Shown here: positions 12,014 to 59,578 of the stretch, piece after piece | How positions within the stretch are numbered: the stretch's first letter is position 1 | How the letters are laid out: the number at the start of each line of letters is the position of its first letter | The notes under the pieces: model-generated | Databases searched by the model: none | Told to the model about the DNA's origin: nothing | The model's input: the letters and a program-made list of their open reading frames with translations, nothing else | Source: Isurus oxyrinchus | Taxonomy: Eukaryota | NCBI GenBank assembly: GCA_026770705.1 | Contig: JANJGN010000021.1 | Location: forward strand, 89,032,001-89,096,000 | Reading direction: 5' to 3' | Length of the DNA stretch: 64,000 nucleotides | Program-made: the position numbers and the translations under genes

Positions 12014-12186
12014 AATTATGCTGCAGATGCTGGAAATCCAAAACAAAAACAGAATTATCTGGAAAAACTCAGCAGGTCTGGCAGCATCGGCGGAGAAGAA
12101 AAGAGTTGACCTTTCGAGTCCTCATGACCCATCGACAGAACTTGAGTTCGAGTCCAAGAAAGAGTTGAAATATAAGCTGGTTTAAG

Positions 12187-12217
<31 letters not shown>

Positions 12218-14207
12218 GGGGGGGGTGGAGGGGGGGGGGGCGGAGAGATAGAGAGAGAGAGAGGTGGGGGGGTGTGGTTGTATGGACAAACAAGCAGTGA
12301 TAGAAGCAGATCATCAAAAGATGTCAACAACAATAGTACAATAGAACACATAGGTGTTAAAGTTATAAAAAGAAAGAAAACTGCGGATGCTGGAAATCCA
12401 AAACAAAAACAGAATTACCTGGAAAAACTCAGCAGGTCTGGCAGCATCGGCGGAGAAGAAAAGAGTTGACGTTTCGAGAACTTGGTTCTGTCGAAGGGTA
12501 ATGAGGACTCGAAACGTCAACTCTTTTCTTCTCCGCCGATGCTGCCAGACCTGCTGAGTTTTTCCAGGTAATTCTGTTTTTGTGTTAAAGTTAAAGTTGG
12601 TGATATTATCTAAACGAATGTGCTAATTAAGAATGGATGGTAGGGCACTCAAGGTACAGCTCTAGTGGGGGTGTTTTTTTTATAATGGAAATAGGTGGGA
12701 AAAGAAAAATCTTAATAATTTATTGGAAAAAAAGGAAGGGGGAAACAGAAAGGGGGTGGGGATGGGGGAGGGAGCTCATGACCTAAAGTTGTTGAATTCA
12801 ATATTCAGTCCGGAAGGCTGTAAAGTGCCTAGTCGGAAGATGAGGTGTTGTTCCTCCAGTTTGCGTTGGGCTTCACTGGAACAATGCAGCAAGCCAAGGA
12901 CAGACATGTGAGCAAGAGAGCAGGGTGGAGTGTTAAAATGGCAAGCGACAGGGAGGTTTGGGTCTGACATGTCCTCCTTCTTCCTTAACCGAGGTTTTCC
13001 ACCCACGGTCGTTAACAGGGCCCTCAACCATGTCTGGCCCATCTCCCGCGCATCCACCCTCACGCCTTCTCCTCCCTCCCAGAAACATGATAGGGTCCCC
13101 CTTGTCCTCACTTATCACCCCACCAGCCTCCGCATTCAAAGGATCATCCTCCACCATTTCCGCCAACTCCAGCATGATGCCACCACCAAACACATCTTCC
13201 CTTCACCCCCCTTATTGGCATTCCGTAGGGATCGCTCCCTCCGGGACACCCTGGTCCACTCCTCCATCACCCCCTACTCCTCAACCCCCTCCTAAGGCAC
13301 CACCCCATGCCCACGCAAAAGATGTAACACCTGCCCCTTCACTTCCTCTCTCCTCACCGTCCAAGGACCCAAACACTCCTTTCAAGTGAAGCAGCATTTC
13401 ACTTGCATTTCCCCCAACTTAGTCTACTGCATTCGTTGCTCCCAATGTGGTCTCCTCTACATTGGAGAGACCAAACGTAATCTGGGCGACCGCTTTGCAG
13501 AACACCTGCGGTCTGTTCGCAAGAATGACCCAAACCTCCCTGTCGCTTGCCATTTTAACACTCCACCCTGCTCTCTTGCCCACATGTCTGTCCTTGGCTT
13601 GCTGCATTGTTCCAGTGAAGCCCAACGCAAACTGGAGGAACAACACCTCATCTTCCGACTAGGCACCTTACAGCCTTCCAGACTGAATATTGAATTCAAC
13701 AACTTTAGGTCGTGAGCTCCCTCCTCCATCCCCACCCCCTTTCTGTTTCCCCCTTCCTTTTTTTTCCAATAAATTATAAAGATTTTCCTTTTCCCACCTA
13801 TTTCCATTATAAAAAAAAACACCCCCACTAGAGCTATACCTTGAGTGCCCTACCATCCATTCTTAATTAGCACATTCGTTTAGATAATATCAGCAACTTT
13901 AACTTTAACACCTATGTGTTCTATTGTACTATTGTCTTTGACATCTTTTGATGATCTGCTTCTATCACTGCTTGTTTGTCCACACAACCACTCCTCTCTC
14001 TCTATCTCTCCACCCCCCACACACACACCTTAAACCAGCTTATATTTCAACTCTTTCTTGGACTCGAACTCAAGTTCTGTCGAAGGGTCATGAGGACTCG
14101 AAAGGTCAACTCTTTTCTTCTCCGCCGATGCTGCCAGACCTGCTGAGTTTTTCCAGGTAATTCTGTTTTTGTTTTGGATTTCCAGCATCTGCAGTTTTTT
14201 TGTTTTT
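12014..14207. mobile_element. Young Penelope-like insertion with inverted arms (12014-~12964 minus; ~12963-14207 plus, thumb/linker/EN + 3' UTR)
   Basis: TSD aagaacaaattcat at 12000-12013 and 14208-14221; GIY-YIG ORF 13386-13715; premature TAA at 13293-13295. Confidence 0.92.
12366..12581. mobile_element. Mini palindromic PLE derivative (two inverted 3' termini) nested in a PLE 3' UTR
   Basis: TSD gtgttaaagtta at 12354-12365 and 12582-12593; complete hammerhead motif on + at ~12485-12522. Confidence 0.88.
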
Positions 14208-14250
14208 AAGAACAAATTCATCCTCACTTAATGCGAAATATGATCAGCAA

Positions 14251-33000: not shown

Positions 33001-35434
33001 GGTAAACAAAAAAAAGAGAGAGGTGATAGTGTAGTGGTATTGTCACTGGCCTAGTAATCCAGAGACCCAGGTTCAAATCCCACCATAGCAAATGGTGGAA
33101 TTTGAGTTCAATGAAAATCGGGAATTATAAGTCTGATAATGACCATGAAACCATTGCTTTGTTGTAAAAGGCCATCTGGTTCACTAATGGAAGGAAATCT
33201 GCTGGCCATCATGAAACAGGAACAAAGAGTCTGATGTTTATAGATGATGTTGTTTGGATACACCATGAAAGCATGATGCATTGAACAGAAACTGGGAATC
33301 ATGTGTCTGAGATTCATTTCAGCTTTTAAGATCAGGTTTTACAGTACAAGCTGAATTCAGGCAAGTTTACTTTGAAGCTGTAGCCAGGTTGCAAGAATAG
33401 ACTGGGTGCACTGGGCCCAGCCTCTGTAATACACAGAGGGCTTGGGTTTTCATGTTGCCTATCATGTCAGAACGGAGATTTGGATGGTGGAGGGGGTTTA
33501 AAAATGCTGGGCAGGACAGGATTCTGGGACCCAAGTTCCCTTGCATTCTGAAATGGTGGAAGGCAAGTAGCAAGCCTGCATCATGCACTCCTGAACAGGC
33601 CAGCTCCGTTGCAGGGGTAAGCAATGGAGCTTATTCTAGGAACCTTGAAACCATTGTTGATTGTTGTAAAAACTAATGTCCTTTAGGGAAGGAAATCTGC
33701 TGTCCTTATTTAGCTTACATGAGACTTCAGCTCCACAATAATGTGGTTGACTCTTAAATGCCCTCTGGACAAGGGCAATTAGGGATGGACAATAAATGCT
33801 GGCCTAGCCAGTGATGCCCACATCCCATGAATGAATAATAAAAAAAACACCTTGGCACTCATCTGCCCCATGGTCCACTCTACTTTATCACCCCCACCTT
33901 CCCAGAGTCCTTTACACTGAAGTGAATCCACCGAGCCAGGAAATTTTCCCGACTCCAACCATCTCCCTCAATAGCGAAAATCAGGCCCAGGGTGCTTAAT
34001 GCCAGCTCCCATGGTTGTTGACTGCTGTAGTTTAATGTGGCACAGGGTAAGTGTAACAGCCATAGCCCCAAGTACCATACGTTAACTGTCTCTCTCGGTA
34101 ATTACTGTCTAAGACATAATTGGCCTATGGAACACATTAAAGCTGCTTCCTCATTAACAGGGTGCACAATCCTTGTTACAGCAACAGTTAAGGAGCTGGG
34201 TCAAGTCTTGTGTTGTCAGTTATTTTTCTATTATTGAAGTCTTAGACTTTTGTGACATCCTTCCATTTTTGTGATCATGATCCAAAGGTAATAATTAAAA
34301 ACAGAACGGTGTTTGTAAATGCCAGAGATTTTTATTTGCAGAATTATATATTATGGTGCAGAACCATGTAATTTGGCTGGCTGAGTTATAGATTCTTTTA
34401 AGTTGGCCCTCTTATGTGCTGTTCAAAACACAGTAATTATGGAAAATAATCCCTCCAGTGATCTTCAGAAGCTATAATTGGAAGCACGAGGTGGATTCCA
34501 CTGCCTCCAGTTGCAATTTTACTGAAATCTCATGAGGATCCTCAAATATTTCATCTAACTCTGTTAGCATAACTTCACTTTATTTCTCCATCATGAATTA
34601 TGACTGTGATCTGGAATGCACTGCATGCAAGAATGGTGAGAAAAGAGGCAATAGCAACAACCAGAAGGGATTTGGACAAATATTTGAAAGTAACAAGGCC
34701 ATATGGAAAGAGCAGGGGAATGTGATTAATCAGAATAGTTCTACTCAATAGCCAGGGAGGTCTTGTGGCACAGTGTGTAGCATTCCTGCCTCTGAGACAG
34801 AAGCCCTAGGGTTGAGAGAGTCCCACCCCAGGACTTGGTGGCCAAGGAAGGTATGTTCATAATGCGGCCAAACAGATTGGAAGGATTTGCAGGTTGATAT
34901 CCAACACACACCAATGGCTAACAGCAAGAGTGGGAGAGATTCCTGGTCAGCCATGCGATGGAAAGGAAGTTGGAGCCTCTACCATCACTATCCACAGCTC
35001 CAGACTACAACCTGCATGTAAAAGTGCATGTTTCCACAGCAGCTCAGATTTCACTGAGTGAACTGTAATACATCACCACACCAAAGAACCAGTATAGACA
35101 CGATGGACTGAATGGTCTCCTTCGGCACTGTGCCATATCATTCCACTGTGGTGGAAGTGTGGATCCTTCACACGTGCAGGGACAAGAGACAGGGTTTTTT
35201 TAAAAAAGCATTTTCAGATGCAGAAATACTTCTGTGAAGTAATCAGACCCGTTTGGGATTAAATAAACTTCATTACTGGTTTATACGCTACCTTCAACCT
35301 GTATTATTTTGTTTGAAAAAAAACATTTGACTTTTCCATCAAAACTCTTGGATTTTTAAAGGTTTGCCATTTATTATCTTTGCCACTTGGTTTGAGATAG
35401 TGTAGTTGGCAAGTGGGTATCACTGAATACTCAC

Positions 35435-35512
35435 CATACACGAGAACAAAGAGCACTGGCACATTCAGACCAACAGCCAGAATTAATCCATGTCGCCCTC
35501 TGGGTTCACGAT
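35435..35512 (-). CDS. Hydrophobic (TM or GPI-signal) exon: DREPRGRHGLILAVGLNVPVLFVLVY
   Basis: ttttttcttttag acceptor, G|GTGAGT donor, phase 1-1, in frame with the C2 exon. Confidence 0.78.
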
Positions 35513-36450
35513 CTAAAAGAAAAAATGAAATGAATCATCTTTGACTAACCCTCGTCAGTGTCGGTTCACTTCCCAATCCGGAGTCAAACACAAAATCTAG
35601 GTCAACATATTAGCATCTTAAACATAGCATCTCCAATGATGTAGCACTCCCTTACACTGCATGAGTGTGTTTAACACCTTGCCTCCACAAAGGCAATTAT
35701 CTTACAACATCAATTTGATGAAAAGCAGGGGAATTCTTTTGGTCAATATTTATGTCTCAGCCAATATCAATAAAGATTTTCTGATCATTGCAGTTTGTGG
35801 GACCTTACAATTTGTAAATTTGCTGGGGGTGTTTCCTACATTACAACAGTGAATACACATCGAAGACTGCTGTAAAGACTTACGGGGCATCCTGACGTTA
35901 TGAAAGGCATCACAGTTGTGGAAGTACCTGAGGGTTTGTGTTGTCTATGAAATGCTACAGTAGCATCGATTAGGCAAGGAAGAAAATAGACAATTCCTCA
36001 AATCATGTGTCGACTAATGAAATTGTGAGGGAGAAACTGGGTTTCAAAACATATTAAAAAAGGGAAGAACAGGCCACCAAGACAAGGTTAACATCTTGTT
36101 CCTGAATGTAAACAAGGTACAGAACCTTGATTTGACTAGAGTTAGAACACATGTTCTTCAGAATATATAAAATATATTTATCGGGATGGAAGGCCATAAC
36201 GTATCAGGAAAGATTATACATGTTGGGGCTCTGTTCTCTATAAAAATAGACTGAGAAATGACCTGGAGGTTTTTTAAGATTATGAAAAGGTTAAACAGGG
36301 TAGATGTAGAGATGTCTCCACTTGGAAGTGAGATCAGAACTCAACGCCATAAATATAGTCATAAATTAAGTTGAAAATTCAGGAAAAAGGTCTCTACCCA
36401 GAGAAAGGCTTGATTGTGAAATGTACAACCCCTGGAATGGTTGAGATGAA

Positions 36451-36562
36451 GAGTATATTTATCCTCCCCTTAAATGCATCTAAACACATGAGGGAGAATG
36501 GAATAGAATATACAGTGGTGAGGTTGGTGTGGAGTTAGTGTGGAACATAAACCCCAGCATGG
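36451..36562. repeat. 112-bp inverted repeat arm 1 (CR1 3' UTR-derived)
   Basis: Reverse complement of 37211-37322 with one mismatch seen. Confidence 0.95.
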
Positions 36563-36631
36563 ACATTCTGAGCCAAATAGCCTGTTTCTATGTAATTCTA
36601 GATTATGAAATTAGATGCTACCCTGACTTAC

Positions 36632-36901
36632 CCTTGATGGACAGCTGATAGCTGTTGCTCTCTCGACTGACTGGGTTTTCGATAGTGCAGTTATAATAAC
36701 CAGAGTCTGATTCCTCTACATTCCTAATGGTTAAAGTACTGTTGTCTGCGGAGAGAAAATAACGCTCGTCATCTGGGAGTGTGAGCCCTCCTCTGATCCA
36801 CCAAATGGAACTGGCTGTCCCGCTCTGCACTGTACAGCTCAGAATAATCATGTTCTTCTCAAGGCTGTCATTTCTGGTGATTTGGGGTGTGGAGAGGGGA
36901 T
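36632..36901 (-). CDS. C2-type Ig domain exon (SLAM/CEACAM/HEPACAM-like)
   Basis: tctttctccag acceptor, G|GTAAGT donor, 270 nt, phase 1-1; IILSCTV, WW, LSADNSTLTIRNVEESDSGYYNCTIENPVS. Confidence 0.93.
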
Positions 36902-37210
36902 CTGGAGAAAGACACAAATAGAGGGTATGTCACTTAATTAACAAATTCATCAATTTGCAGTTATACAGCATCTTTCACAAACTCAGGAGGTGCCAAAGTG
37001 TGTTAAACCCAATGAAATACACTTGAGTCGAGGGAACTGTGGCACAGGCATAACATTACTACAGCAGTAACACAAAGGCCCAGACTGATGAGCTCAAACA
37101 TCACCATGGCAGCACCTGTCTCAACAATGGTGACCATGAAACTACCAGATTGTCATTAAAAACCATTCTGATTCACTGATGTCCTTTAGGGGACAAAATC
37201 TGCCTTCTTA

Positions 37211-37322
37211 CCATGCTGGGGTTTATGTTCCACACTAACTCCACACCAACCTCACCACTGTATATTCTATTCCATTCTCCCTCATGTGTTTAGACGCATT
37301 TAAGGGGAGGATAAATATACTC
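37211..37322. repeat. 112-bp inverted repeat arm 2, inserted within a SINE-like repeat
   Basis: Interrupts the SINE motif ...ctgcc..cttacc|tggc.tacatgtgactccag. Confidence 0.95.
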
Positions 37323-37491
37323 TGGCGTACATGTGACTCCAGGCCCACAGCAACATGACTGACTCTTAAATGCCCCCAGAAATGGGCTAGCAAGCTAATT
37401 ATACCATCTGCTACAGAAAAGTCAAAGGAGAATAAACCCAAACAGATCGCAGGACATACCTCGGCACAAGAAACAACAATGGCACACCTCA

Positions 37492-40400
37492 GATAAAAGC
37501 AAAAAACTGTGGATGCTGGAAATCCAAAACAAAAACAAAAATACCTGGAAAAACTCAGCAGGTCTGGCAGCATCTGCGGAGAGGAACACAGTTAACGTTT
37601 GGAGACCGAATGACCCTTAAACAAAACTAAGTAAAAATAGAAGAGAGGTGAAATATAAGCTGGTTTAGTGGGGGGGGAGGGGGGGGGGGGGGGGGGGGGG
37701 TGGGGGCGGGGGGGCTGGGGGTGTAGTGGGGGGTGGGACAAGCAGTGCTGGATAGAGGGCCAGTGATAGGTGGAGATAGCCAAAAGATGTCACAGACAAA
37801 AGGACAAAGTTGTTGAAGGTGGTGATATTATCTAAGGAATGTGCTAATTAAGGGTAGAAAGCAGGACAAGCAAGGTACAGATAGTCCTAGTGGGGGTGGG
37901 GTGAAGGAATCAAAAAAGGCTAAAAGGTAGAGATAAAACAATGGATGGAAATACATTTAAAAATAATGGAAGTAGGTAGGAAAAGAAAAATCTATAAAAA
38001 TTATTGGAAAAAAATGGGGGGGGAAATCTGAAAGGGAGTGGGGATGGAGGAGAGAGTTCATGATCTAAAATTGTTGAACTCAATATTCAGTCCGGAAAGC
38101 TGTAAAGTGCCTAGTCGGAAGATGAGGTGCTGTTCCTCCAGTTTGCATTGAGCTTCACTGGAATAATGAAGCAGGTCAAGGACGGACATGTGGGCATGAG
38201 AGCAGGGTGGATGTTGAAATGGCAAGCGACAGGGAGGTCTGGGTAATGCTTGCGGACAGACTGAAGGTGTTCTGCACAGCGGTCACCCAGTGTGTGTTTG
38301 GTCTCTCCAATGTAGAGGAAACTGCATTGGGAGCAATGAATGCAGTAGACTAAATTGAGGGAAGTGCCTGTGAAATGCTGCTTCACTTGAAAGGAGTGTT
38401 TGGGCCCTTGGACGGTGAGGAGAGGGGAAGTCAAGGGGCAGGTGTTGCACCTTCTGCAGTTGCATGGGAAGGTGCCGTGGAAGGGAATTGAGGTTAGGGG
38501 GTGATGGAGGAGTGGACCAGGGTGTCCTGGAGGGAATGATCCCTGCGGAATGCTGCCGGGGGGGTTGAAGGGAAGATGTGTTTGGTGGTGGCATCATGCT
38601 GCAGTTGGCGGAAATAGCGGAGGATGATCCTTTGAATGTGGAGGCTGGTGGGGTGATGAGTGAGGACAAGGGGGACCCTATCATGTTTCTGGGAGGGAGG
38701 AGAAGGTTTGAGGCCAGATGCGCGGGTGATGAGTCGGACACAGTTGAGTGCCCTGTCGACCAGTGTGTGTGGAAAACCTCGGTTAAGGAAGAAGGAGGAC
38801 ATGTCAGAGGAACTGTGTTTGAAAGTGGCATCATCAGAACAGATGCAGCGGAGTCGAAGGAACTGAGAGAATGGGATGGAGTCCTTACAGGAAGCGGGGT
38901 ATGAGGAGCTGTAGTCGAGGTAGCTGTGGGAGTTGGTAGGCTTATAATGGATATTGGTGGACAGTCTATCAGCGGAAATTGAGACAGAGAGGTCAAGGAA
39001 GGGAAGGGAAGTGTCAGAGATGGACCACGTGAAAATGATGGAGGGGTGGAAATTGGAAGCAAAATTAATAAATATTTCCAGGTCCAGACGAGAGCATGAA
39101 GCAGCACCAAATTAATCATCGATGTACCGGAGAAAGAGTTGTGGAAGGGGGCTGGAGTAGGAGTGGAACAAGGAATGTTCCACATACCCCATAAAGAGAC
39201 AGGCATAGCTGGGGCCCATATGGGTACCCATAGCTACACCTTTTATTTGAAGGAAGTGAGAGGAGTTTAAGGAGAAATTGTTCAGTGTGAGAACAAGTTC
39301 AGCCAGACGGAGGAGAGTAGTGGTGGATGGGGATTGTTCAGGCCTCTGTTCGAGGAAGAAGCTAAGGGCCATCAGACCATCCCGGTGGGGGATGGAGGTG
39401 TAGAGGGATTGGACCTCCATGGTGAAGAGGAAGCGGTTGGGGCCAGGGAACTGGAAATTGTTTATATGATGTAGGGTGTCAGAGGAATCACGGATGTGGT
39501 TGGGAAGTGACTGGACAAGGGGAGAGTGAATGGAGTCAAGATAGCAAGAAATGAGTTCCGTGGGGCAGGAACAGGCTGACATGATCGGTCTGCCGGGGGG
39601 TTCTTGTTTGTGGATTTTGGGTAGGAGGTAGAAGCGGGCTGTCTGAGGTTAGGAGAGTATCAGGTTGGAAACTGTGGAAGGAAGATCTCCAGAGGAGATG
39701 AGGTTAGTAACAGTCCTGGAAACAATGGCTTGATGTTCAGTGGTGGGATCATGGTCCAGGGTGAGGTAGGAGGAAAAGTCTGCGGGTTGACGCTCTATCC
39801 GCAGGATAGAGGTCAATGCACCAGACAACAGCACCACCCTTGTCAGTGGGTTTAATGACAATGTCAGGGTTGGACCTGAGAGAACGGAGTGCAGCAAGTT
39901 CAGAGAGAGACACTAAGATAAAAGCAAAAAACTGCGGATGCTGGAAATCCAAAACAAAAACAAAAATACCTGGAAAAAGTCAGCAGGTCTGGCAGCATCT
40001 GTGGAGGAGCACAGTTAACATTTTGAGTCCGAGTGACCCTTCAACAGAACTAAGTAAAAATAGAATGGAGGTAAAATATAAGCAGGTTTACGGGTGGGTG
40101 GGACAAGTACAGCTGGATAGAAGGCCAGTGATAGGCGGAGATAACCAAAAGATGGCACAGACAACAGCAGAAAGAGGTGTTGAAGGTGGTGATATTATCT
40201 AAGGAATGTGCTAATTAAGGGTAGAAAGCAGGACAATCAAGGTACAGATAGTCCTAGTGGGGGTGGGGTGAAGGAATCTAAAAAGGCTAAAAGGTAGAGA
40301 TAAAACAATGGATGAAAATACATTTAAAAATAATTGAAGTAGGCGGGAAAAGAAAAATCTATATAAATTATTGGGAAAAAAAGGTGGGGAAATCAGAAAG

Positions 40401-40790
40401 GGGGTAGAGATGGAGGAGAGAGTTCATGATCTACAATTGTTGACTCAATATTCAGTCCAGAAGGCTGTAAAGTACCTAATCGGAAGATGAGGTGCTGTTC
40501 CTCCAGTTTGCGTTGAGCTTCACTGAAACAATGCAGCAAGTCAAGGACGGACATGTTGACATGAAAGCAGGGTGGAGTGTTGAAATGGCAAGCGACAGGG
40601 GGGTCTGGGTAATGCTTGCAGACAGACCGAAGGTGTTCTGCAAAGCGGTCACCCAGTCTGCGTTTGGTCTCTCCAATGTAGAGGAAACCACATTGGGAGC
40701 AACGAATGCAGTAGACTAAATTGAGGGAAGTGCAAGTGAAATGCTGCTTCACTTGACAGGAGTGTTTGGGCCCTTGAATGGTGAGGAGAG
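37492..40790 (-). mobile_element. Partial-tandem Penelope-like element (EN+3'UTR unit 39916-40790 followed by RT-EN+3'UTR unit 37492-39915)
   Basis: One TSD, ggcacacctca, at 37481-37491 and 40791-40801; RYIDD and GIY-YIG fragments. Confidence 0.92.
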
Positions 40791-41659
40791 GGCACACCTC
40801 ATCTCATCAACCCTGCAAAACCCTCTTTACTAACAGCTGAGGGCTGGTGTCAAATTGGAAGAGCAGACTACTGACGCAGTCATACCATACAGCTAATTGT
40901 CCCAGACTCCTTCATCACTGTCTCTGGGTCTGTTCCATCCCAGCAGAAGAACAGAGCATGAGAGAGAGGGCAAGGCAATGGAATATAGTTGGGATAGAGC
41001 CCTCAATGTTGACCTGATGCTGTTAGACTCAGCAGTTAACTTAAGGGCGAGGATTACCAGCCATCACCCTCCCCTCAGCTGATGAATCAGTGCTCTGCCA
41101 TTTGGCCACCACTTGGAAGAAGCACCAGGGGTAGAAAAGGCTCAGAAGGTACTCCAGTGGAGAATGTCCACGTCCATCATCAGCATTAATACTCTTTCTC
41201 CCTTTCTGAAAAAAAAAGGTGAACAATTCTAAGGGAGTCAGGAACCAAGACAAGTTAGAGGTGTGGATCACAAAATTTACACCACCCACATTGAGGTCAC
41301 TAGGCACTACAGGTATTTGTGAACCAATAGCAAGCCAGGGTGACGGACAGGAGGGTCAGCAGGGTAGTACGCACACTGACAGCTTGAGTACCTGTCCTCT
41401 ATCCATTAGTCAGAAGGCTTTGATTGACCCTGGGTAGGCTACCAGCCCCTAGAAATAAAGGCCCATAACTTAATCTCCAGGGCGTCATACCCAGGAGTTT
41501 TGGGAGGGGTGGTGTGGTCACAGTGGGGAACCGCTCTCCACAACCATTCCCCTTGCCCGCAAAATGTCCCTACATCAGGATTGCAGAGCAGTTGCCTAGG
41601 AAGTTCAAGCTTCCGTTCTGCAATTACCCTGATCTAGGAAACATCCCCCCCATAGGGGG

Positions 41660-44299: not shown

Positions 44300-45350
44300 G
44301 TTTTAAGTTAATAAGTAATCAAGGTCTGCAAATGTAGTACAAGTCGGAACCCATGCCAGGGCTGCATGAGGCTTGATCTGCCACTGCCATGCCGACAACA
44401 TTTTTTATTCCGAATCTGCTGTTGTGATTGACATTTTGCCCACTGCTTGAGTAACTCAGTGCACCCGCCACATTTCCCCTCCCAGAGTCTTCATTAAATC
44501 CCACCCAATGATTTGCTCTGCTAAAGACCACCTACTCCAGGTATTGGGTGCACAATCTACAAATTCAAGCTAGCAGTGTAAGATTATCTGTGCAGAGAGC
44601 TTTGCCTCTCTTGAATCCCTGCATGTTCTGCAATTTACTTGCTCTTTAAAAAAAAAAATAGCTGGAACTATTTCCATATTCTCATCACTATTTTTTTTAA
44701 AACAAACTCTCTACCACTTAGAAGGTCATGCCCATGTCTTCTGGCAGATTTGTCCTTAGCTAACAGATTGGTGGAGGCTCGCTGCAAGGTCAAATGCCCA
44801 ACTGGTGGTAAAATGGTGGCCAGCCTCAGTGTTCAGGTACCTTTTCTCTTTCTCTGCCTGTGCGCCCCACCCCAATCCTGGTACAGCTTCAAGAAACTCT
44901 CCTTGCACCTTCTAAGTCGAAGTATTGGAAAAATATCCTCTCTTGTAGCAAGTTGAGGACTTTTCCACAATAGTAAAGGGTCTCTTATTGTGTTCACAAC
45001 CTGAGCAATCTGACGTGGTTCACAGACTCTTCCACAACCCACGTGCCTCAATGAAAATAACCACGACTCATAAAAACCAGAGTTCATGCAGGCTCTTAAA
45101 ATGCCGATCTCGATGTCACTTTGCATGTACATTGGGTCGTGACCTGTCATGTTTTCTGCAATGTACAGAATGGCATCTGGTGCCAATTGGGTGGGCAGTT
45201 TATTAATGAGATCACCCCCGCCTCTATTTTCAATCACCCAACGCAGGTTAAAAAAAAAGGGGCAGCAAAATCTAGCCCCAAGTCTCCAGTATGTTTGGAT
45301 CCTCAGACAAGGGGGGAGTTGCCATCAATGATGTTCCATCTCAATCATTA
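44300..45350 (-). mobile_element. Possible highly decayed hAT-type transposase remnant
   Basis: Weak frameshifted motif resemblance only (VVGMAVADQAS vs hAT xxGxxxDGAS; PTNWH..L.KH). Confidence 0.3.
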
Positions 45351-45404
45351 TAAACATCCTAGAAACAGAACACCACATCAGCAGGTAAAATTTCTTTGCT
45401 GCTA

Positions 45405-47340
45405 GAATTTACATATCAAGGGTCTACTGAGAAGGAGGTATTGAAAGAAATTAGTATTAGTAAAACAATAGTGCTGGAGAAATAAATGGAACTGAAAGCC
45501 AATAAATTCCCAGGGCCCAATAATCCACATCCCAGGGTACAAAAGGAGGTGGCCATGGAAATAGTGGATGCATTGGTTGTCATCTTCCAAACTTCTGTAG
45601 ATTCTGGAACAATCCTGGCAGATTGGAAGGTGACAAATGTAACCCCACTATTTAAAAAAGGAAGGAGAAAACAGCAAATTACTGGCCAAAAACAGAATTA
45701 CCTGGAAAAACTCAGCAGGTCTGGCAGCATCGGCGGAGAAGAAAAGAGTTGACGTTTCGCGTCCTCATGACCCTTTGACAGAACTTGAGTTCGAGTCCAA
45801 GAAAAGGACTCGAACTCAAGTTCTGTTGAAGGGTCATGAGGACTCGAAACGTCAACTCTTTTCTTCTCCGCCGATGCTGCCAGACCTGCTGAGTTTTTCC
45901 AGGTAATTCTGTTTTTGTTTTTGTTTTGGATTTCCAGCATCCGCAGTTTTTTTGTTTTTAAATTACTGGCCAGTTAGCCCAAAATCAGTAGTAGTGGAAA
46001 TACTAGTCTATTGTGTAGGATGTGATAACAGGGCATTTAGAAAACATCAATGGGATTAGACAAAGTCAGCATGGATTTATGATAGTGAGTCATATTTGAC
46101 AAATGTACTGGAGTTTTGAGGACATAACTAGCAGAGTAGATAAGGGAGAATCAGTGGATGTGGTGTATTTAGATCTTCAGAAAGATTTTGATAAAGTCCT
46201 ACATAAGAGGTTAGTGTGCAAAATTAAAGACATGGTATTGGAGGTAATATATTGGCATAAATTGAGAATTGGTTAGTAGACAGGGAACAGAGAGGGAATA
46301 AATGTGTCTTTTTCAGAATGGTAGGCAGTGACTAGTGGAGTACCACAAAGATCAATGCTTGGACCCCAGCTATTCACAACATATATCAATGATTTGAATG
46401 AGGGAAACCAAATGTAATATTTCCAAGTTTGCTGATTACATGAAACTTGATGGGAATATGAGCGATGGAGGGTATTAAGAGGCTTTAAGGCAATTTAGAC
46501 AGGTTGAATGGGCAAATGATAGATGCAGTATAATGTGGCTAAGTGTGAAGTTATCCACTTATGGTAGGAAAAATGGAATGGCAGAGTATTATTTAAATGG
46601 TGATAGATTGGGAAATGTTGATGTACAGAAGGATATGGATGTCCTTGTACACCAATCACTGAAAGCAGCATGCAGGTGCAACAGTTAGGAAGGCAAACAG
46701 TCTGTTGGCTTCATTGCAAGAGGATTTGAGTACAGGAGCAAGGATGTCTTACTGCAGCTGCTCAGGGCTTTGGCTAGACCATATCTGGAGTATTGTGCAC
46801 AGTTTTGGTCTCCTTACCCAAAAAGGATATACTTGCTGTATAGGGAGTGCAGCGAAGGTTCACCAGGCTGAGTACCGAGGTGACGGGGGATATGAGGAGA
46901 AATTAGGCCAACTAGACCTGTATTCACTGGAGTTTAGAAGAACGAGAGGGGATCACATTGAAAAACATAAAATTCTGACAGGGATGATGTTTCCTCAGGC
47001 TGGGGGAGAGGGGGGAGCAGTCAGGTTTTTGGAACAAGGGGTGACAGTCTCAGGATACAGGATAGGCCATTTAAAACTGGGATGGGGAGAAACTTCTTCA
47101 CTCAGAGGGTGGTGAACCTGTGGAATTCTCTACCTCAGATGGCTGTGGAGACCAAGTCACTGAATACACTTAAAGAAGGAAAGATAGATTTCTCAGCTCT
47201 AAAGGCATTAAGGGGTAGGGGTAGTGGTAGGAGTAGGGGGAGAGCATGGGAGTGCAGTATTGAGGTAGAGGATCAGCCATGATCATATTGAATGTTGGAG
47301 TAGGCTCGAAGTGCCGAATGGCCTACTCCTGCTTTCTATG
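45405..47340 (+). mobile_element. CR1 LINE ORF2 3' half, interrupted by a mini-PLE
   Basis: KANKFPGPNNPHPRV, DWKVTNVTPLFKKG, DVVYLD, FFTQRVVNLWNSLP. Confidence 0.92.
45689..45959. mobile_element. Mini palindromic PLE derivative (~110-bp arms, 7-nt loop)
   Basis: TSD aaattactggcca at 45676-45688 and 45960-45972; hammerhead motif in each arm. Confidence 0.92.
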
Positions 47341-47554
47341 TTTACTGTCAGCATAAATTCATGAAATGCCACCCTATCACAGGAAACAAGTTCTTTCTCA
47401 TATAGATTCAAAAATTTTAGTACCTTAAATCCACCAAGTAGGTTGGTGCTTTATTTAATCTGTCATGTCCATTGCTCGGTCAAGTCTCCTTTACAAAAGT
47501 TACGTCTTTCCATATCTCAACCCTTTCTCGATGAGGTTTGTGCTTATTCTGCTA

Positions 47555-47980
47555 TTTAGGAACATGGGAGCAGGAGTAGACCATTTAGCCCCTTGAGCCT
47601 GCTCCGCCATTTAACTAGATCACATCTGATCTTCTACTTCAACACCATCTTTCTGCACCATCCCTATATCCTTCAATGTCACTAGTATCTAGAAATCTAT
47701 TGACCTCTGCTTTGAACACACTCAGCAGCTGAGCCTCCACTGCCCTCTTGGGTAGAAAATTCCAAAGATTTACTACATTCTGACTGAAGAAATTCCTCCT
47801 CATCTTGGTTCTAAACGACCTACCTCTTATTATGGGACTGTCCCACCTGGTTCTAGACTCCCCCAACAAGGAGAAAACATCCTTTCTACATTAGCCTATC
47901 GAGCCCTGTAAGAATTCTTTTTTACACTTCAATGAGATCATTTCTTATTCTTCAAAACTCCAGAGAATACAAGCCCACTT
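47555..47980 (-). mobile_element. CR1 LINE 3' end
   Basis: ESRTR...RNFFSQNVVNLWNFLP. Confidence 0.85.
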
Positions 47981-48723
47981 GTATGTAAACTAGTTGTCCA
48001 CTTAAAGCTAAACTTAAAGAAATCCACCCATCTTACATTTATATATATACGCATACACAAACATGCAAATGTAAACAAGCTGTGGAGAGGTAATAAAAAT
48101 CAACTGCAAGATAATAAGATCATACTGGGCCAGATTTTCCATAGCAATGGGAAATATGGAGATAAATAAATCATAGAATCAAGTACAAAGCCATCACCAT
48201 TACCCACACAGCCCAGCTCCTGCACCTAACACTGGAGGAAATCTGCTTTATAAACTATAGAGCATTCAGTCTAAGCCCTGCTACAAGATAACAGCACTCA
48301 AATGCAACCAACACTCAACTGCAGCAGAGAGTGCAACATTGTCAGAGGTTCTGAGTTTTGAATGAGATGGTAAACCGAGGCCCCATGTGCCCATTTAGAG
48401 GGACATAAAAGATCTCATAACATTAACCAAAAGAGAAACAGTGATGTGCTCCTCATGCTTTGGCCAATTGATACCATGATAATTGCAATAACTGATTAAT
48501 CATTTCATTTTCTCTTTTTGGGATCTTGCTGTGTCTCATTTGGATGACACCTTTCCCTATAATACAGTAGTGATTGCATTTCAAAAGTGCTTCACTAGCT
48601 GGTGGAGCAGTCGGTGATGTCCTGAGGACATCAACAGGGAAGTCTTGGAAGGATTAGCAGGCTGATTATCAACCTGTCGAACCACATCATGAATGTTCCT
48701 TCAAAGGCCAATAGATTCTTGTT

Positions 48724-48935
48724 ATTGCTGAAAAAAAGGAGACACGTCAAAGCTTTTTGCTTTGCACTCACAGACACTTTGGAAGAAAACCAATAAAAGG
48801 GGAAAACAACAATTTATACTGTACATGAAGAGACTGCTGATTGGTTGGCAAGTGGACTCTGATTGGTGGAGGAGAATGCACCAATGAAGGTGAGTGACAG
48901 TTAACTACCAAGCATTGTTTGAAATTTAAACCAGG
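48724..48935 (-). mobile_element. Possible 3' end of another PLE family with a decayed hammerhead motif
   Basis: - strand ctg-tgagtgcaaagc-aaaaagcttt-gac resembles CTGATGA...GAAA with a palindromic AAGCTT. Confidence 0.4.
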
Positions 48936-50336
48936 CATCTTTATTTTTGTTAGGCAAGGGAATCAAAGGTTATCAGGGGAGAGATGGGAACATGGAATTT
49001 GAAACAAACGGATCAGCCATGATCGTATTGAATGGCCGAGCAGGCACGATGGGCCGAATGGCCGACATCTACTCCTATTCCATATGTTCATATGTCCTGG
49101 AGTGGGACTTGAACCTGGAGCCTGACTGAGCCACAAGACTTCCATCCTAAGGAAGCAAAATGTCCTGTATTAACGTTAGTGCTTTGTTTCGCTCTCTATT
49201 GCTGTTTGTACCAATAACTGCATTTCAGTACTTGATGGGACAGAAAAATGGGTTTGATTACAGCTTTCATGTGTAAACAAGAGGCCAAAAATTGGGGCCT
49301 TCAGTGGTATTAAGATTAGCCATTGCTGGCCAAAGAGGATAGCTGTAAGAGCAGTGATACAACAGTTGAGAACCCTTTAGCAGGCGTACTGCTTTTGGTG
49401 CGTTTGCCTCTTACCAGCAGCGGGTGGGAAACTGCACCTGGTTATAACAACAGTAACAATGGCTGGAGATGCACCAAGTACATTTCATGTTCTGGGAAGC
49501 AGATGCACTGTGAAAGTGAGCTGATACCACAAAGGATTAAATTTCACACTATCCCTGCGAAAAGCTGCTGAAGCTGGCAGTCAATTGAAAACTTCAAAAG
49601 GAGAATAATAGTTTGATGTTAGGCAGGGGTATGATGTTTTACAGAACCGAGACAGGTAAATGGTTCAAACACAGGCCAACCGCGATGTAATTCAATGGAG
49701 GAATTGGCTGGAGGGGCTGAATGACCTTGTGTTCCTATGCTCTTTTCTTCCGAGTTTCAAATAGTTTTACAAGCAAATGTATGTCATTCAGAACTCTTTA
49801 TGGGCCAGCTGGTTTGAGACTCATGGTCCAGGTGTGTGATCTGATGCACTGTGTCAGGATTGTCCAGCCCGTGGACCAGATGCGGCCCGTGAAGCCCCTC
49901 TATTGTGGCCTTCCGGAGCCACTGTTCAAAATGATGGTCAAATGGGTAAGTGGAGTGGAAGATTATGCAAAGAGCTGTTCCTCCAATCACAGGCCGTTCC
50001 TCTCCCACAGCAGTAAACGTGGGAGAGAAACGGTGTCTGATTGGAGGAGCATCAAACACCAGCGATAGTGAATGTGCTGGGAGAAGGGAGGTTTTCAGGG
50101 CTCGGGGTAGACACCATGTGACAGAATGGACAATTTTATTGTGGGATGGGGGTGAGGAAAGAGAATCCTCATCCATAAAATTGAAGGGACAGGAAAGAAG
50201 GAATCACTCAATTGCTGTTAAACATTGGTTTCACCCATAATCACTAGAGTCAGACCACCATGGCAACTAATACATCCAAACATTAAATATACATTTTGTT
50301 CAAACAGTGTGCATTGGAATATCTGTAGGTACTTAC

Positions 50337-50633
50337 CATACACTGTAAGAGTTAGAATTCTAGTCCTGGTCGGGTCCAAGTCCGCAGTCATTTTGTATCT
50401 GCCAGTATCCTCTTTGTGTAAATCTTTTAGCAATAAGAATCCATTTGATTTTCTAAATTCCACTCGATTCTTGTACTGACTATATATTTGTTCATAGTCC
50501 ATACCGTAATCTAAAATGGGAAGAGTCCTGCTTGGATTAGATAATTCCCATTGGAGATTACCGAATTCTCTATCAGTTCCAGGGAATAGAACGGAGGAAC
50601 CTGTAGCAGCCATCATGTCTTTCGTCACCTGTG
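50337..50633 (-). CDS. V-set Ig domain exon, Cys-free (CD2/SLAM/CEACAM-N-like)
   Basis: ttttag acceptor, G|GTAAGT donor, phase 1-1; GSSVLFPG, LQW, YKNRVEF..SNGFLLLKDLHKEDTGRY, LTLTVY. Confidence 0.92.
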
Positions 50634-52317: not shown

Positions 52318-52378
52318 CTGAAACCGGGTCGGTGAGAAGCTGCAGAAGATGAAGAACAGGGAGGATAAGGATCGTCAT
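52318..52378 (-). CDS. Signal peptide exon MTILILPVLHLLQLLTDPVS
   Basis: ATG at 52378, hydrophobic leader, CAG|GTAAAA donor; phase 1 joins the V exon in frame. Confidence 0.82.
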
Positions 52379-54182: not shown

Positions 54183-57130
54183 TTGCGAGGCGGTGGTGTA
54201 GTGTAGTGGTATTATCACTGGACTGATATTTCAGAGTTCCAGGGTAATTCTCTTGAGATCAGGGTTTGAAACCCTCCAGAGCAGATGGTGGGATATGAAT
54301 TTAATTTTTTAAAAAAAAGCAATTAAAAACCAAAAGATGACTATAAATCCATTGTTGTAAAAACTCATTTGGTCACTAATACACTTTAGGGAAGAAATCT
54401 GCCATCCTTACTGGTCTGATCTACTCCAGACCCACAGACATGTGGTTGACACTTAAATGCCCTTTGAACAAGGGCAATTAGGAATGGGCAAGAAATGTTA
54501 GCCTAGCCAGTGACATCTACATCCCATGAATGAGATTTTAAAAATGACAATATGACACCTTCCTTCAGGGGCTGATCACTTACATTATTTTAAAGTGATC
54601 CCACACAAAGGCTTATCAGGGAATTATTGGAATAGTCACATCTTGAGGATGTGGATGGACTCATGAGTGACAAAAGGAGAGAGAACGAAGGGGCGCTCAG
54701 TTCCTGATCATCCAAATTGTCCAAACAATTGGACACAGTGGGGATTCAGGTAACGTAGAAAAAATAGAGCTTAATTATAAACAGAGGAGAGTGAGTAGAC
54801 AATATAAGTTTTTAACCACTTATAAAAACAAGCATTTGGATTCATGACCCCACATCAAAGACAGCTGATCCTTTAATAAGCTCTTTGAGCTGTCAATCAA
54901 ACTGAACTGGATAATATCAGAACTTGGACTGGTCTCTCTATGGGACAGGCAGTGAAAGCAGGGGAGAACAGAAATCAGTGGAAAGAGATTGTTCATAGTG
55001 TGGCCAACCATCAGAACAATGACAGATGAAAGACAAGGCAAGGAGATATTCAGCAGTTCTGGCAGCATATATGGAGAGGGAAATAGTTAACATTTCAGGC
55101 AAATGACCTGTCATTGGATTCCCCTATCTTATCATGACTCCTATAAGGTAGAGAAGCACAACACTTCAAATTTTTAGATGAATTCCTCAGAGAATTTCTA
55201 GCCTCAGTTTTGGGGAAGTTTTGGCTAAGTGCCCCAGAAAATCTCCCTATGTATGTTAAGATGTCTCTTCACAGCTCCACAGCAAGTGGGCATGAAATGG
55301 TGCATATCCCTTTAAATATTGTTTGAAATCCATATCAACTGTGTCATTCCTAAACAGCTCATTGCTGTTAGAAGGTGAGAGGACAAACTCCTCCCACCAA
55401 AGTACTCAGCAACCTCTTGAATGAGATCTAAGAGGTATTTTAAGTTGCAATCAGTTGCTTAATGATCCTCTGGCAGCCGGTCCAAGCACAAACTTCAACT
55501 CCTTTACCAAAATGTATCTGGTGCTAAATATAGACTGAGCCAGTGTTTCAGCCCAACACCCAATCTTTGCCACCTTGGAGGGTTGTTAGCTCCTGAACAC
55601 TGGCAAAAATCACCCCTGTAGGCTTTTAAAATGCACAATTTTCTTCAGAGGATTGGGGATTGTGAGGGAGTAGATTGCTGCAATATACAAGGCAAGGGGT
55701 TCCTGTTGCTGTACTGCATAACATATAATGAAAGCTATGACTCAGGAAAAGCAGGAATAGAAAATAGTGATATGATATGGTGGGACATGGAGGCCCCTCA
55801 TTCCTGTCTAGAAATATGTTCAAATATCTAGACTTATAGTACACTCCATAACGTGGAATCCAGCAGGAACCCGAATCGTTCAGTTGGAATTTTTGCTGAA
55901 CTTCATGATCGGGTAATGTGAAAAGAGTAGGACAGGCCATTCTCATGATTTCCACCTAGTTCCCCACACAGGGATGTAGGATTACACGTGTGTTACTCAG
56001 CAATGAACTTGGAGAGGTTGATTGAGGGGTTCAGGAGATGTGTGTTTGTGGCTTCATGTATTAGTAGCATACATCTACATAGTACTGAAGTGGACTGAAG
56101 TATTGTCCTGGATTATGTGTTCACTCCCTGCAGTGGAACTGAATTTACAACCTTCTGGCTTAGTGATGAAAGCACTACCAACACTGGAAGTATCAAAGCC
56201 AGTTTCCCTCCGCTTTAATTATACTGTTATCAATCTCCAAAACTAAGAAAAGGAGATATGTTTATTAGCCTGAACAAGGGGAAGCCTGCACCTTTTCCCT
56301 GATACAAGTACTTCTGGAGTTTAACTCATTTTGCAGAATGTGCTAATTTTAGTTAATCTTGTCTTGGCTAAATTAACTATCTTGCCTCATGCCTTTATGC
56401 CCAGTATAGTCCTTGGATGTCTTCAATCTCGGTTCTTCGGTCACCTCGATGTTCCATCTTAGCACCATGAGACAAACTTCATACGCAGGGCTACGCTACG
56501 ATCGGGCTACATATATTAATATAAAAGAATTGAAGAAACAGTTACAGAGTTTAAAAGTTTTTATATATTAAAAGGTGAATAATATGTTGGTACAAGTGCA
56601 ACCACATCTTTCCTGTAACGCAGTGATCAGAATTGTACACAGTATCCTAGCCATGGCCTAACTAGTGTTTTATTCAGTTTTGGCATAACCTTCCTCCTTT
56701 TACATTTTATGCCCCAAGCTAATAAAGACAAGTGTCCTACCTTAACCACTGCATCTATCTCTCTGTTATGTTCAGGGATCTGCAGACATGCACAGAGTCA
56801 CAGAGTTTTAATGGCACAGAAGGAGGCCATTTGGCTAATTGTGTCTGCACCGGCTCGCCAAATCAGTATTGTGACCTAGTGTCATTGCGCTGCCTTTTCC
56901 CCAAACCCTTGGACATTGTTTGTATTCGAATAATCATCTAATGCCCTCTTGAATGCCTCGATTGAACCTGCCTCCACCACATTTCCAGGCAGTACATTCC
57001 AGACCTGAAACAGTCGCTAGATGAAAAAGTTTTTTCTCACGTCTTATTTGCTTCTTTTGCAAATCACTTTAAAACTGTGTCCTCTTGTTCTTGATTCTTT
57101 TCCGAGTGGGAACAGCTTCTCCCTATCACG

Positions 57131-58360
57131 TTGAACAATTTCTCCTTCAACTCCTCTCACTTTCTCCAAATAAAAGGTGTGGCTATGGGTACCCGCATGG
57201 GCCCCAGCTATGCCTGTCTCTTTATGGGATATGTGGAACATTCCTTGTTGCAGTCCTACCCCGGCCCCCTTCCACAACTTTTTCTCCGGTACATCGATGA
57301 TTACTTCGGTGCTGCTTCATGCCCTCGTCGGGACTTGGAAAAATTTATTAATTTTGCTTCCAATCTCCACCCCTCCATCATTTTCACGTGGTCCATCTCT
57401 GACACTTCCCTTCCCTTCCTTGACCTCTCTGTCTCAATCTCTGGTGATAGACTGTCCACCAATATCCACTACAAACCCACCGACTCCCACAGCTACCTCG
57501 ACTACAGCTCCTCACACCCCGCTTCCTGTAAGGACTCCATCCCATTCTCCCAGTTCCTTCGCCTTCGTCGCATCTGTTCCGATGATGCTACCTTCAAAAA
57601 CGGTTCCTCTGACATGTCCTCCTTCTTCCTTAACCGAGGTTTTCCACCCACGGTCGTTGACAGGGCCCTCAACCGTGTCCGGCCCATCTCCCGCGCATCC
57701 GCCCTCACGCCTTCTCCTCCCTCCCAGAAACATGATAGGGTCCCCCTTGTCCTCACTTATCACCCCACCAGCCTCCGCATTCAAAGGATCATCCTCCGCC
57801 ATTTCCGCCAACTCCAGCATGATGCCACCACCAATCACATCTTCCCTTCACCCCCCTTATCGGCATTCCGTAGAGATCGCTCCCTCCGGGACACCCTGGT
57901 CCACTCCTCCATCACCCCCTACTCCTCAACCCCCTCCTATGGCACCACCCCATGCCCACGCAAAAGATGTAACACCTGCCCCTTCACTTCCTCTCTCCTC
58001 ACCGTCCAAGGGCCCAAACATTCCTTTCAAGTGAAGCAGCATTTCACTTGCATTTCCCCCAACTTAGTCTACTGCATTCGTTGCTCCCAATGTGGTCTCC
58101 TCTACATTGGAGAGACCAAACGTAAACTGGGCGACTGCTTTGCAGAACACCTGCGGTCTGTCCGCAAGAATGACCCAAACCTCCCTGTGGCTTGCCATTT
58201 TAACACTCCACCCTGCTCTCTTGCCCACATGTCTGTCCTTGGCTTACTACATTGTTCCAGTGAAGCCCAACGCAAACTGGAGGAACAACACCTCATCTTC
58301 CGACTAGGCACCTTACAGCCTTCCGGTCTGAATATTGAATTCAATAACTTTAGGTCGTGA
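57131..58360 (+). CDS. PLE polyprotein fragment: RT (GVAMG, YIDD), thumb, Cys linker (CPRKRCNTC), GIY-YIG endonuclease
   Basis: 409-aa stop-free ORF lacking the N-terminus. Confidence 0.9.
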   Translation: MNNFSFNSSHFLQIKGVAMGTRMGPSYACLFMGYVEHSLLQSYPGPLPQLFLRYIDDYFGAASCPRRDLEKFINFASNLHPSIIFTWSISDTSLPFLDLSVSISGDRLSTNIHYKPTDSHSYLDYSSSHPASCKDSIPFSQFLRLRRICSDDATFKNGSSDMSSFFLNRGFPPTVVDRALNRVRPISRASALTPSPPSQKHDRVPLVLTYHPTSLRIQRIILRHFRQLQHDATTNHIFPSPPLSAFRRDRSLRDTLVHSSITPYSSTPSYGTTPCPRKRCNTCPFTSSLLTVQGPKHSFQVKQHFTCISPNLVYCIRCSQCGLLYIGETKRKLGDCFAEHLRSVRKNDPNLPVACHFNTPPCSLAHMSVLGLLHCSSEAQRKLEEQHLIFRLGTLQPSGLNIEFNNFRS

Positions 58361-58776: not shown

Positions 58777-58815
58777 AGTTCTGTCGAAGGGTCATGAGGA
58801 CTCGAAACGTCAACT
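58777..58815 (+). ncRNA. Minimal hammerhead ribozyme-like motif, predicted cleavage after GUC at 58811
   Basis: Stem I AGTT/AACT, core CTGTCGA+A, stem II GGGTC/GACTC, GAAA, palindromic ACGT. Confidence 0.62.
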
Positions 58816-59345
58816 CTTTTCTCCTCCGCCGATGCTGCCAGACCTACTGAGTTTTTCCAGGTAATTCTGTTTTTGTTTTAGATTTCCAGCATCCGCAGTT
58901 TTCTTTGTTTTCATCTCCCTATTTAATCTGTCCAGCCCCCTCATGATTTTGAATATCTCTAACAAATCTCCTCTTAGCCTTCTTCCCTCTAAGGAGAACA
59001 GTTCCAACCTCTCCAATCTATCTTAGTAACTAAAGTTTCCTATCCCTGGAACCATTCTTGTAAACATCTTCTGCACTCTCTCTAATGTGTTCACATCCTT
59101 CCTACAATGTGGCAACCAGAACTACACAATACTCCATCTCAGGTCTAACGAGTGTCTTGTATAAATTCAGCATAACCTCCTTGCTCTCGTAGTCAAGAAC
59201 AAGGGACTTTTACGGCACCCTCACAGCATAGAGGAGACGAAAAGAGTATTCAAGAGTTCACTCACAGAACAATCAAAGTGACAAAGCTTATACTCTTAGC
59301 CACACGGCCCCTAAGTGCCATTGCTCACGACCACCCTAGAGCAGT

Positions 59346-59578
59346 AATAAAACAAAAAAACTGCGGATGCTGGAAATCCAAAACAAAAACAGAATTACCT
59401 GGAAAAACTCAGCAGGTCTGGCAGCATCGGCGGAGAAGAAAAGAGTTGACGTTTCGAGTCCTCATGACCCTTCGACAGAACTGAAGGGTTATGAGGACTC
59501 GAAACGTCAACTCTTTTCTTCTCCGCCGATGCTGCCAGACCTGCTGAGTTTTTCCAGGTAATTCTGTTTTTGTTTTGT
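59346..59578. mobile_element. Mini palindromic PLE derivative (~95-bp arms, 9-nt loop)
   Basis: TSD caccctagagcagt at 59332-59345 and 59579-59592. Confidence 0.92.

What the first reader, a model, noticed from the sequence alone, without database searches (positions are those of the whole stretch)
36451..37322. Near-perfect 112-bp inverted repeat closely brackets the symmetric C2 exon
Seen: 36451-36562 and 37211-37322 are reverse complements with one mismatch, 69 bp and 309 bp from a 270-nt phase 1-1 exon. Arm 2 interrupts a SINE, and both arms share what appears to be a micro-inversion of CR1 sequence (tttatcctccccttaaatgcatcta), so arm 2 looks like a local templated copy rather than an independent transposition. 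Known: flanking intronic inverted repeats promote exon skipping and back-splicing. Inference: could give an in-frame V-only isoform with a shorter ectodomain and/or a 270-nt circRNA.
Basis: partly seen in the sequence, partly recalled or inferred. Interest (0 to 1): 0.7.

Follow-up and report, generated by a model that had tools for sequence, protein, structure and literature searches.

The report
Copied intron piece brackets shark exon
In a shark immune-type cell-surface gene, a 107-base piece of one intron sits backwards in the neighbouring intron, likely pasted there by a DNA-repair slip, so the RNA is predicted to fold a long stem around one exon, but the transcripts seen keep that exon and any skipping is untested and likely minor.

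Summary
The 112-bp inverted repeat is real (1 mismatch) and lies 69 and 309 nt from a 270-nt phase 1-1 Ig exon of a lamniform-shark V+C2 surface-protein gene (minus strand). Arm 2 is a templated inverted insertion. Intron contigs of a related species (2 runs, 2 studies) have 2 letters where this genome has 107, with 2- and 4-nt microhomology and no target-site duplication. A 97%-identical inverted paralogue 200 kb away carries both arms, so this is unlikely to be an assembly slip; the three haplotypes imply that arm 2 moved between copies by conversion or recombination. The geometry mirrors the mouse Tbxt insRCS2 allele, which causes skipping, and a skip would be in frame. But the one guessed-RNA run of this species gives a single unbroken contig through the exon, no back-splice joint was listed, and the arms' constancy is not specific to pairing. 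No other Ig exon (0 of 28) is bracketed. Skipping below contig resolution is untested. Verdict: ordinary template-switch scar with a plausible, unproven minor splicing effect. The scan noted similar exon-flanking inverted copies before in two other genomes.

The parts
36451..36562 (.). Arm 1 (template): part of an old LINE-type 3' end (CR1-like, name recalled) in the intron downstream of the C2 exon
   Evidence: also present in related species B contigs
36458..36482 (.). 25-nt micro-inversion inside arm 1, older than arm 2 (copied into it)
   Evidence: reverse complement fits 20 of 21 repeat copies better
37211..37322 (.). Arm 2; the inserted part is 37213-37319 (107 nt) in place of 2 nt, flanked by 2-nt and 4-nt microhomology, no target-site duplication
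   Evidence: joint 37212 to 37320 with 2 letters between in runs X15 and X16; 0 of 21 repeat copies carry it
37040..37480 (+). Host SINE-type repeat split by arm 2 (ends approximate)
   Evidence: B-box-like motif in 7 of 21 copies
36230..36620 (+). Host LINE-type 3' fragment holding arm 1 (about 66-84% identical to other copies; ends approximate)
36632..36901 (-). Bracketed exon, 270 nt, phase 1-1, second (C2/I-type) Ig domain
   Evidence: covered exactly by contigs in 4 of 4 runs
35435..35512 (-). Next exon, 78 nt, hydrophobic C-terminal segment (membrane anchor or GPI signal, inferred)
   Evidence: splice joint 35512/36632 in 3 of 4 runs
50337..50633 (-). V-set Ig exon, 297 nt, phase 1-1
52318..52378 (-). 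Leader (signal peptide) coding exon; donor at 52318 is the phase-compatible candidate

Best explanation
Arm 2 is a 107-nt reverse-complement copy of the downstream intron inserted into an old repeat in the upstream intron, likely by a germline template switch at short microhomologies, and the pair is predicted to form a long stem in the pre-mRNA that likely loops out the exon in only a minority of transcripts. Steps: (1) shown - the insert is absent from the related species' intron contigs and from all other repeat copies, replaces 2 nt, has 2- and 4-nt microhomology and no target-site duplication; (2) shown - it carries arm 1's private micro-inversion, so arm 1 (or its paralogue) is the source; (3) inferred - MMBIR or polymerase-theta-type repair made it; (4) shown - both paralogues in this genome carry it; inferred - it passed between them by gene conversion or recombination, long ago; (5) predicted - a 112-bp duplex with one G.U pair; (6) inferred - the exon has strong splice sites and is mostly included, so the element is most likely tolerated and near neutral, giving at most a low-level in-frame V-only form.
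For: Empty site in X15 (1786-nt contig that starts inside the C2 exon) and X16, two studies, 2 of 3 species-B runs laid; the third does not cover the intron. 0 of 21 repeat copies with the insert. Only 4 close matches to the arm in the genome search: the two arms and the two arms of the paralogue (4 of 5 rows). Junction microhomology of 2-12 nt is the described signature of templated insertions, which also occur as germline variants (PMC8421209, passages). Inclusion: X20 (organism A) gives one 1272-nt contig at depth 58.9 running from upstream sequence through the whole exon into the next exon; the splice joint is in 3 of 4 runs. That contig begins exactly after a site at which the two paralogues differ (V position 173), a hint that both copies are expressed and merged. 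Arm constancy is not specific to pairing: arm 1 is also unchanged over 106 nt in species B, which lacks the partner. 0 of 28 other Ig exons are bracketed, and other low-copy local inverted pairs occur in the 387 kb held.
Against: The geometry is close to mouse Tbxt insRCS2 (220-nt copy from the downstream into the upstream intron), where the skipped form exceeded the full-length form (PMC10901737, passages), and deleting one arm reduced skipping in 7 of 8 selected minigenes by about 1 to over 40 PSI points (PMC13019944, passages), so a real effect may be larger than assumed. The four arms hold 1 substitution between paralogues against 5.7 expected (Poisson P 0.022, Fisher P 0.052). The RNA evidence for this species is one run, kind guessed, tissue unknown, contigs only, from another individual whose arm-2 status is not known; the V exon lay outside the stretch laid, so a skip joint could not be listed. 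Arm 2 was not checked in DNA reads or contigs of either species.
Confidence: 0.62

Rival explanations
1. The insertion is a working, lineage-specific splicing switch: the stem loops out the C2 exon in a substantial share of transcripts in some tissues and yields a V-only receptor with a shorter ectodomain, and it has been kept in both paralogues for that reason.
For: Skip is in frame without a stop; predicted duplex -217 and -210 kcal/mol in the two copies; arms closer and more alike than typical Alu pairs; Tbxt insRCS2 precedent (PMC10901737, passages); 1 substitution against 5.7 expected; present in both paralogues although the haplotype pattern requires a transfer; the one arm-to-arm difference is a G.U pair in the sense strand.
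Against: X20 contig unbroken across both junctions of the exon at depth 58.9; arm 1 equally unchanged in the species without arm 2, and arm 2 alone is not significantly slow (P 0.22); transfer between paralogues is common in such clusters and a likely conversion tract lies at 34000-35000.
Confidence: 0.22
2. The main product of the stem is a 270-nt circular RNA made by back-splicing 36632 to 36901.
For: Repeats of 30-40 nt suffice for circularisation (PMC4201285, abstract and passages); these are 112 nt and close to both splice sites.
Against: In that paper ZKSCAN1 exons of 400 nt or less circularised poorly or not at all, and stronger hairpins did not raise and sometimes lowered the yield (passages). 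No go-back joint among 15 shown of 18 joints, though library type is not on record and poly(A) selection would lose circles, so this is weak.
Confidence: 0.08
3. Arm 2 is an assembly artefact or a private variant of the sequenced animal.
For: No read-level check of arm 2 in this species was obtained; DNA runs of organism A hold only 0.76-0.81 of sampled words.
Against: Two loci 200 kb apart, 2.5% diverged, both carry it; they share the arm-2-specific letter and the paralogue's arm 2 has one further change of its own. The paralogue alone holds 0.70 of the words, so a merged contig of two copies can give such shares.
Confidence: 0.04
4. The arms are the terminal inverted repeats of a transposon, or two independent insertions of one repeat family.
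For: Most other close inverted pairs in the window are arms of a high-copy element (14-32 copies in held DNA).
Against: Other copies of the arm sequence are only about 76% alike (1 of 5 rows); no target-site duplication; arm 1 is continuous with its host repeat on both sides while arm 2 alone is absent in species B; the private micro-inversion is shared.
Confidence: 0.02

Closest known systems
Mouse Tbxt insRCS2 allele and human TBXT AluSx1-AluY pair (PMC10901737)
   Same: A piece of the intron downstream of an exon copied in reverse complement into the upstream intron at a break, making a near-perfect pair around one exon; not dependent on Alu sequence.
   Different: There 220 nt, made at a CRISPR cut, skipping measured and linked to a phenotype; here 107-112 nt, natural and old, present in two paralogues, skipping not seen.
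MMBIR-type templated insertions (MMB-TI; PMC8421209) and short-range template switches (PMC7954356)
   Same: Inverted copy of nearby sequence, microhomology of 2 and 4 nt at the junctions, small loss at the site, germline.
   Different: The cited search covered templates within 100 bp; here the template lies about 650 nt away. The enzyme cannot be told from sequence.
Inverted Alu pairs that loop out exons or drive circular RNA (PMC13019944, PMC4201285)
   Same: Complementary stretches in both flanking introns, lineage-specific gain, close to the splice sites.
   Different: Arms are a single-copy local duplicate at 99% identity, not two members of a high-copy family; exon shorter than those that circularised well; no product shown.
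Shark CEACAM1-like / HEPACAM-like V+C2 surface proteins (XP_041068027-33 of Carcharodon carcharias; Cetorhinus maximus)
   Same: 98% and 85% identity over the C2 exon, same leader-V-C2-hydrophobic exon plan; V domain weakly nearest CD48/CD2 chimera in PDB (E about 1e-3), C2 nearest CEA/CEACAM1.
   Different: Automatic names disagree; the mammalian orthologue is not settled here.

Membership tests
Templated inverted insertion (MMB-TI / template switch) | Ancestral site without the insert | tested here: met
   Species-B contigs in 2 runs of 2 studies; 0 of 21 repeat copies with insert
Templated inverted insertion (MMB-TI / template switch) | Insert is an inverted copy of a nearby template | tested here: met
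   111 of 112 identical, 648 nt apart, shares private micro-inversion
Templated inverted insertion (MMB-TI / template switch) | Junction microhomology of 2-12 nt, no target-site duplication | tested here: met
   2 nt left, 4 nt right against the window's arm 1 (1 nt against the paralogue's shortened flank); 2 nt lost
Templated inverted insertion (MMB-TI / template switch) | Dependence on a named repair pathway (MMBIR, polymerase theta) | not testable with these tools
   Cannot be told from a fixed scar
Exon-skipping intronic duplex (TBXT type) | Complementary arms in both flanking introns | tested here: met
Exon-skipping intronic duplex (TBXT type) | Skipped transcript detected | tested here: inconclusive
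   One run of this species: unbroken inclusion contig; V exon outside the laid stretch; contigs drop rare forms
Exon-skipping intronic duplex (TBXT type) | Skipping depends on the arms (deletion, compensatory change) | not testable with these tools
   Needs a minigene
Circular RNA locus with reverse-complementary flanks | Back-splice junction, RNase R resistance | tested here: inconclusive
   No go-back joint in 15 shown of 18; library type unknown
Conserved RNA structure under selection | Compensatory changes or pairing-specific constraint | tested here: not met
   No compensatory change; the paralogue's one change breaks a pair; arm 1 equally unchanged without a partner; no Rfam match
Transposon with terminal inverted repeats | Multi-copy element, target-site duplication, both ends absent at the empty site | tested here: not met

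The most novel reading that the evidence does not exclude
A single germline template-switch event built, without any pair of mobile elements, a natural counterpart of the Tbxt insRCS2 allele; it spread by conversion to both paralogues of a fast-evolving shark Ig receptor and gives this lineage a V-only receptor form that a close relative with the empty site cannot make - a ready natural knock-in/knock-out pair for the birth of an alternative exon.
Probability: 0.2. Interest if true: 0.62.

Novelty: new member of a known kind. Interest (0 to 1): 0.33.

Why it matters
If the stem changes splicing, it shows that ordinary repair scars, not only pairs of transposons, can create lineage-specific alternative exons, and the empty site in a close relative makes the test unusually clean. 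Shortening a two-domain adhesion or immune receptor by one Ig domain would change the spacing at cell contacts (inference from CD2/CEACAM-type proteins, own knowledge). If it does not, it is a well-resolved example of a near-perfect exon-spanning stem that a vertebrate gene has tolerated for a long time in two copies.

Tried and rejected
No RNA holder is on record as RNA in the run search; six runs were guessed as RNA and four were laid. A V-region protein search over 131-419 aa gave 7 proteins, all 245-263 aa with both domains, and 16 of 16 isoforms in the two nearest clusters hold the C2 domain; these species may lack arm 2, so this is no test of arm-driven skipping. Rfam: 0 matches. Exon flipping between the arms: the exon has the same orientation relative to its flanks in both paralogues. 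Homogenisation of the arms: the A/G difference is kept in both paralogues. Family-wide feature: 0 of 28 other Ig exons (30 loci fetched of 65 matches). The paralogue stretch was fetched as a shorter V-to-anchor reference but holds a long G-rich tandem array and was not used for reads. Paper searches for a shark case or a natural templated insertion causing skipping listed none; the library lacks most subscription papers and no supplements were read.

Full report
Observation. The two arms are exact reverse complements over 112 nt except at 36478. They lie 69 and 309 nt from a 270-nt exon on the minus strand with AG/GT ends and phase 1 on both sides. The exon encodes an Ig domain. Folding the sense strand gives one long stem, -397 kcal/mol against -254 for 20 shuffles; the mismatch is a G.U pair in that strand.

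The gene. The closest proteins are a CEACAM1-like protein of Carcharodon carcharias (98%) and a HEPACAM-like protein of Cetorhinus maximus (85%), so the window is from a close relative of these sharks. Their isoforms map to a leader exon (52378-52318), V exon (50633-50337), the C2 exon, a 78-nt hydrophobic exon (35512-35435) and alternative last exons. Joining V to the hydrophobic exon keeps the frame without a stop. In PDB the V domain is weakly nearest CD48/CD2, the C2 domain nearest CEA/CEACAM1; the family name is not settled.

Origin of arm 2. Both flanks of arm 2 match one dispersed repeat whose other copies run straight through: 0 of 21 copies carry the insert, 12 of 21 read CTTACCTGGTC at the site, two of the 21 look like duplicates of each other. 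Seven of 21 have a B-box-like motif upstream, in line with a tRNA-derived SINE. Arm 1 is part of another old repeat, continuous with it on both sides; the 25 nt at 36458-36482 fit 20 of 21 copies better when reversed, and arm 2 carries this private inversion. The strongest evidence is from species B in the run search: contigs of runs X15 and X16 (two studies) join 37212 to 37320 with 2 letters between, and the X15 contig begins inside the C2 exon, so it is this locus or a close paralogue. The event thus put 107 nt in place of 2, with 2 nt of microhomology on one side and 4 on the other and no target-site duplication. That matches templated insertions, 80% of whose junctions had 2-12 nt of microhomology and which occur as germline variants (PMC8421209, passages read), and the template-switch process described for ape genomes (PMC7954356, abstract only). 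The pathway itself is inferred.

The paralogue and the order of events. The genome search returns the arm four times at 98-100%: here and in an inverted copy of the gene about 200 kb away, part of a duplicated block covering window 21.7-53.3 kb at 95-97% (216 substitutions in 8499 nt around the exon). Both copies keep the same A/G difference between arms, so the arms have not been homogenised, and the paralogue's arm 2 has one change of its own; this makes an assembly slip unlikely. Of 38 listed differences of species B from the window (8 more not shown), B agrees with the paralogue at 22, is alone at 15, and one site has three states. Polarised with repeat copies, the paralogue and B share a derived 13-nt deletion beside arm 1 and a derived letter at 36271; at 3 of the 4 B-only sites that could be examined B is derived and one is unclear. 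So the window has arm 2 without the deletion, the paralogue both, and B the deletion without arm 2. No single tree gives that; arm 2 must have crossed between copies by conversion or recombination (inferred), and early, since the two copies differ at several sites around it. A copy in B that was not expressed in these runs could still carry arm 2; that was not tested.

Selection on the stem? Between paralogues the arms hold 1 substitution in 224 nt against 5.7 expected (P 0.022; Fisher 0.052). The control weakens this: in B, without a partner, arm 1 is also unchanged over the 106 nt covered (2.9 expected, P 0.06), and arm 2 alone is not significantly slow (P 0.22). The one change breaks a pair; none is compensatory. 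Slow divergence and chance explain the near-perfection without selection on pairing.

Transcripts. All four runs laid are contigs and only guessed to be RNA. The C2-to-next-exon joint (35512/36632) stands in X20 (organism A, depth 58.9), X15 and X16; X19 has the two exons as separate pieces. In X20 one 1272-nt contig holds 123 letters upstream, the whole exon and the next exon without a break, so no skipped form was strong enough to split it (inference from how such contigs are built). It starts directly after a site at which the paralogues differ and carries two of the three paralogue letters in the exon, a hint that both copies are expressed and merged. No go-back joint is among the 15 shown of 18. 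Limits: one individual, tissue and library unknown, arm-2 status of that animal unknown, V exon outside the stretch, 24 of 227 loose ends shown, rare forms dropped. This bounds skipping to 'not the main form in this sample', no more.

Context. None of 28 other Ig exons from this genome has a bracketing inverted pair within 1.5 kb. In 387 kb of held DNA, not a random sample, there are eight independent close inverted pairs of 60 nt or more; five belong to high-copy elements and three, this one included, are low-copy. In a 5-Gb genome some such pairs will span exons by chance.

Comparison. The nearest known case is mouse Tbxt insRCS2: 220 nt of intron 6 inserted backwards into intron 5, where the skipped form exceeded full length in embryos (PMC10901737, passages). 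Removing one Alu reduced skipping in 7 of 8 pre-selected reporters (PMC13019944, passages). So it could work like these, and some skipping is plausible, but membership needs a skipped product, which is not shown. For circles, short repeats suffice, but ZKSCAN1 exons of 400 nt or less circularised poorly (PMC4201285, passages). Searches for a shark case or a natural templated insertion with this effect listed none. The scan's own notes hold two similar exon-flanking inverted copies in other genomes, both read as copying scars (unchecked, seen after my reading was set).

Verdict. Observation confirmed; origin well supported; function unproven and likely minor. New member of a known kind, interest 0.33. 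The empty site in a close relative makes the functional question cheap to settle; if a V-only form proves specific to this lineage the interest would be about 0.6 (probability about 0.2).

Noticed in passing
window 50337-50633 against L095:121-417: The V exons of the two paralogues differ at 9 codons, 7 of them changing the residue, while the C2 exons differ at only 3 nt: possible selection on the ligand-binding domain.
   Followed up: partly
window 34000-35000: Only 4 substitutions between paralogues in 1000 nt against a mean of 2.5%: looks like a recent conversion tract.
   Followed up: no
G000:C21:88887535-88887643 and 88889639-88889747 (in L042): A second low-copy inverted pair, 109 nt at 96%, 2 kb apart, one arm abutting a long repeat.
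   Followed up: partly
L053:728-1125 and 1701-2108: About 400-nt inverted pair at 94%, 2 copies in held DNA.
   Followed up: no
window 12021-14208, 58777-59482, 57095-58360: Close inverted pairs at the ends of a high-copy element with a 421-aa open frame that looks like a Penelope-type reverse transcriptase (label recalled; Pfam gave no match).
   Followed up: partly
window about 10050-10410, + strand: A V-set Ig exon of another gene on the opposite strand (Pfam V-set 2.3e-08); contig C21 holds a large cluster of related Ig exons at 86.6-89.1 Mb.
   Followed up: no
window 37491-41354 and 44684-49114: Two multi-kb stretches in the V-C2 intron are absent from or replaced in the paralogue, which instead holds a 1.3-kb G-rich tandem array.
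   Followed up: no
window 35152-35246: An alternative last exon close behind the hydrophobic exon is the main form in run X15 (depth 280) and matches isoform X3 of Carcharodon; several isoforms end a few residues after the hydrophobic stretch, as GPI-anchored proteins do (inference).
   Followed up: no
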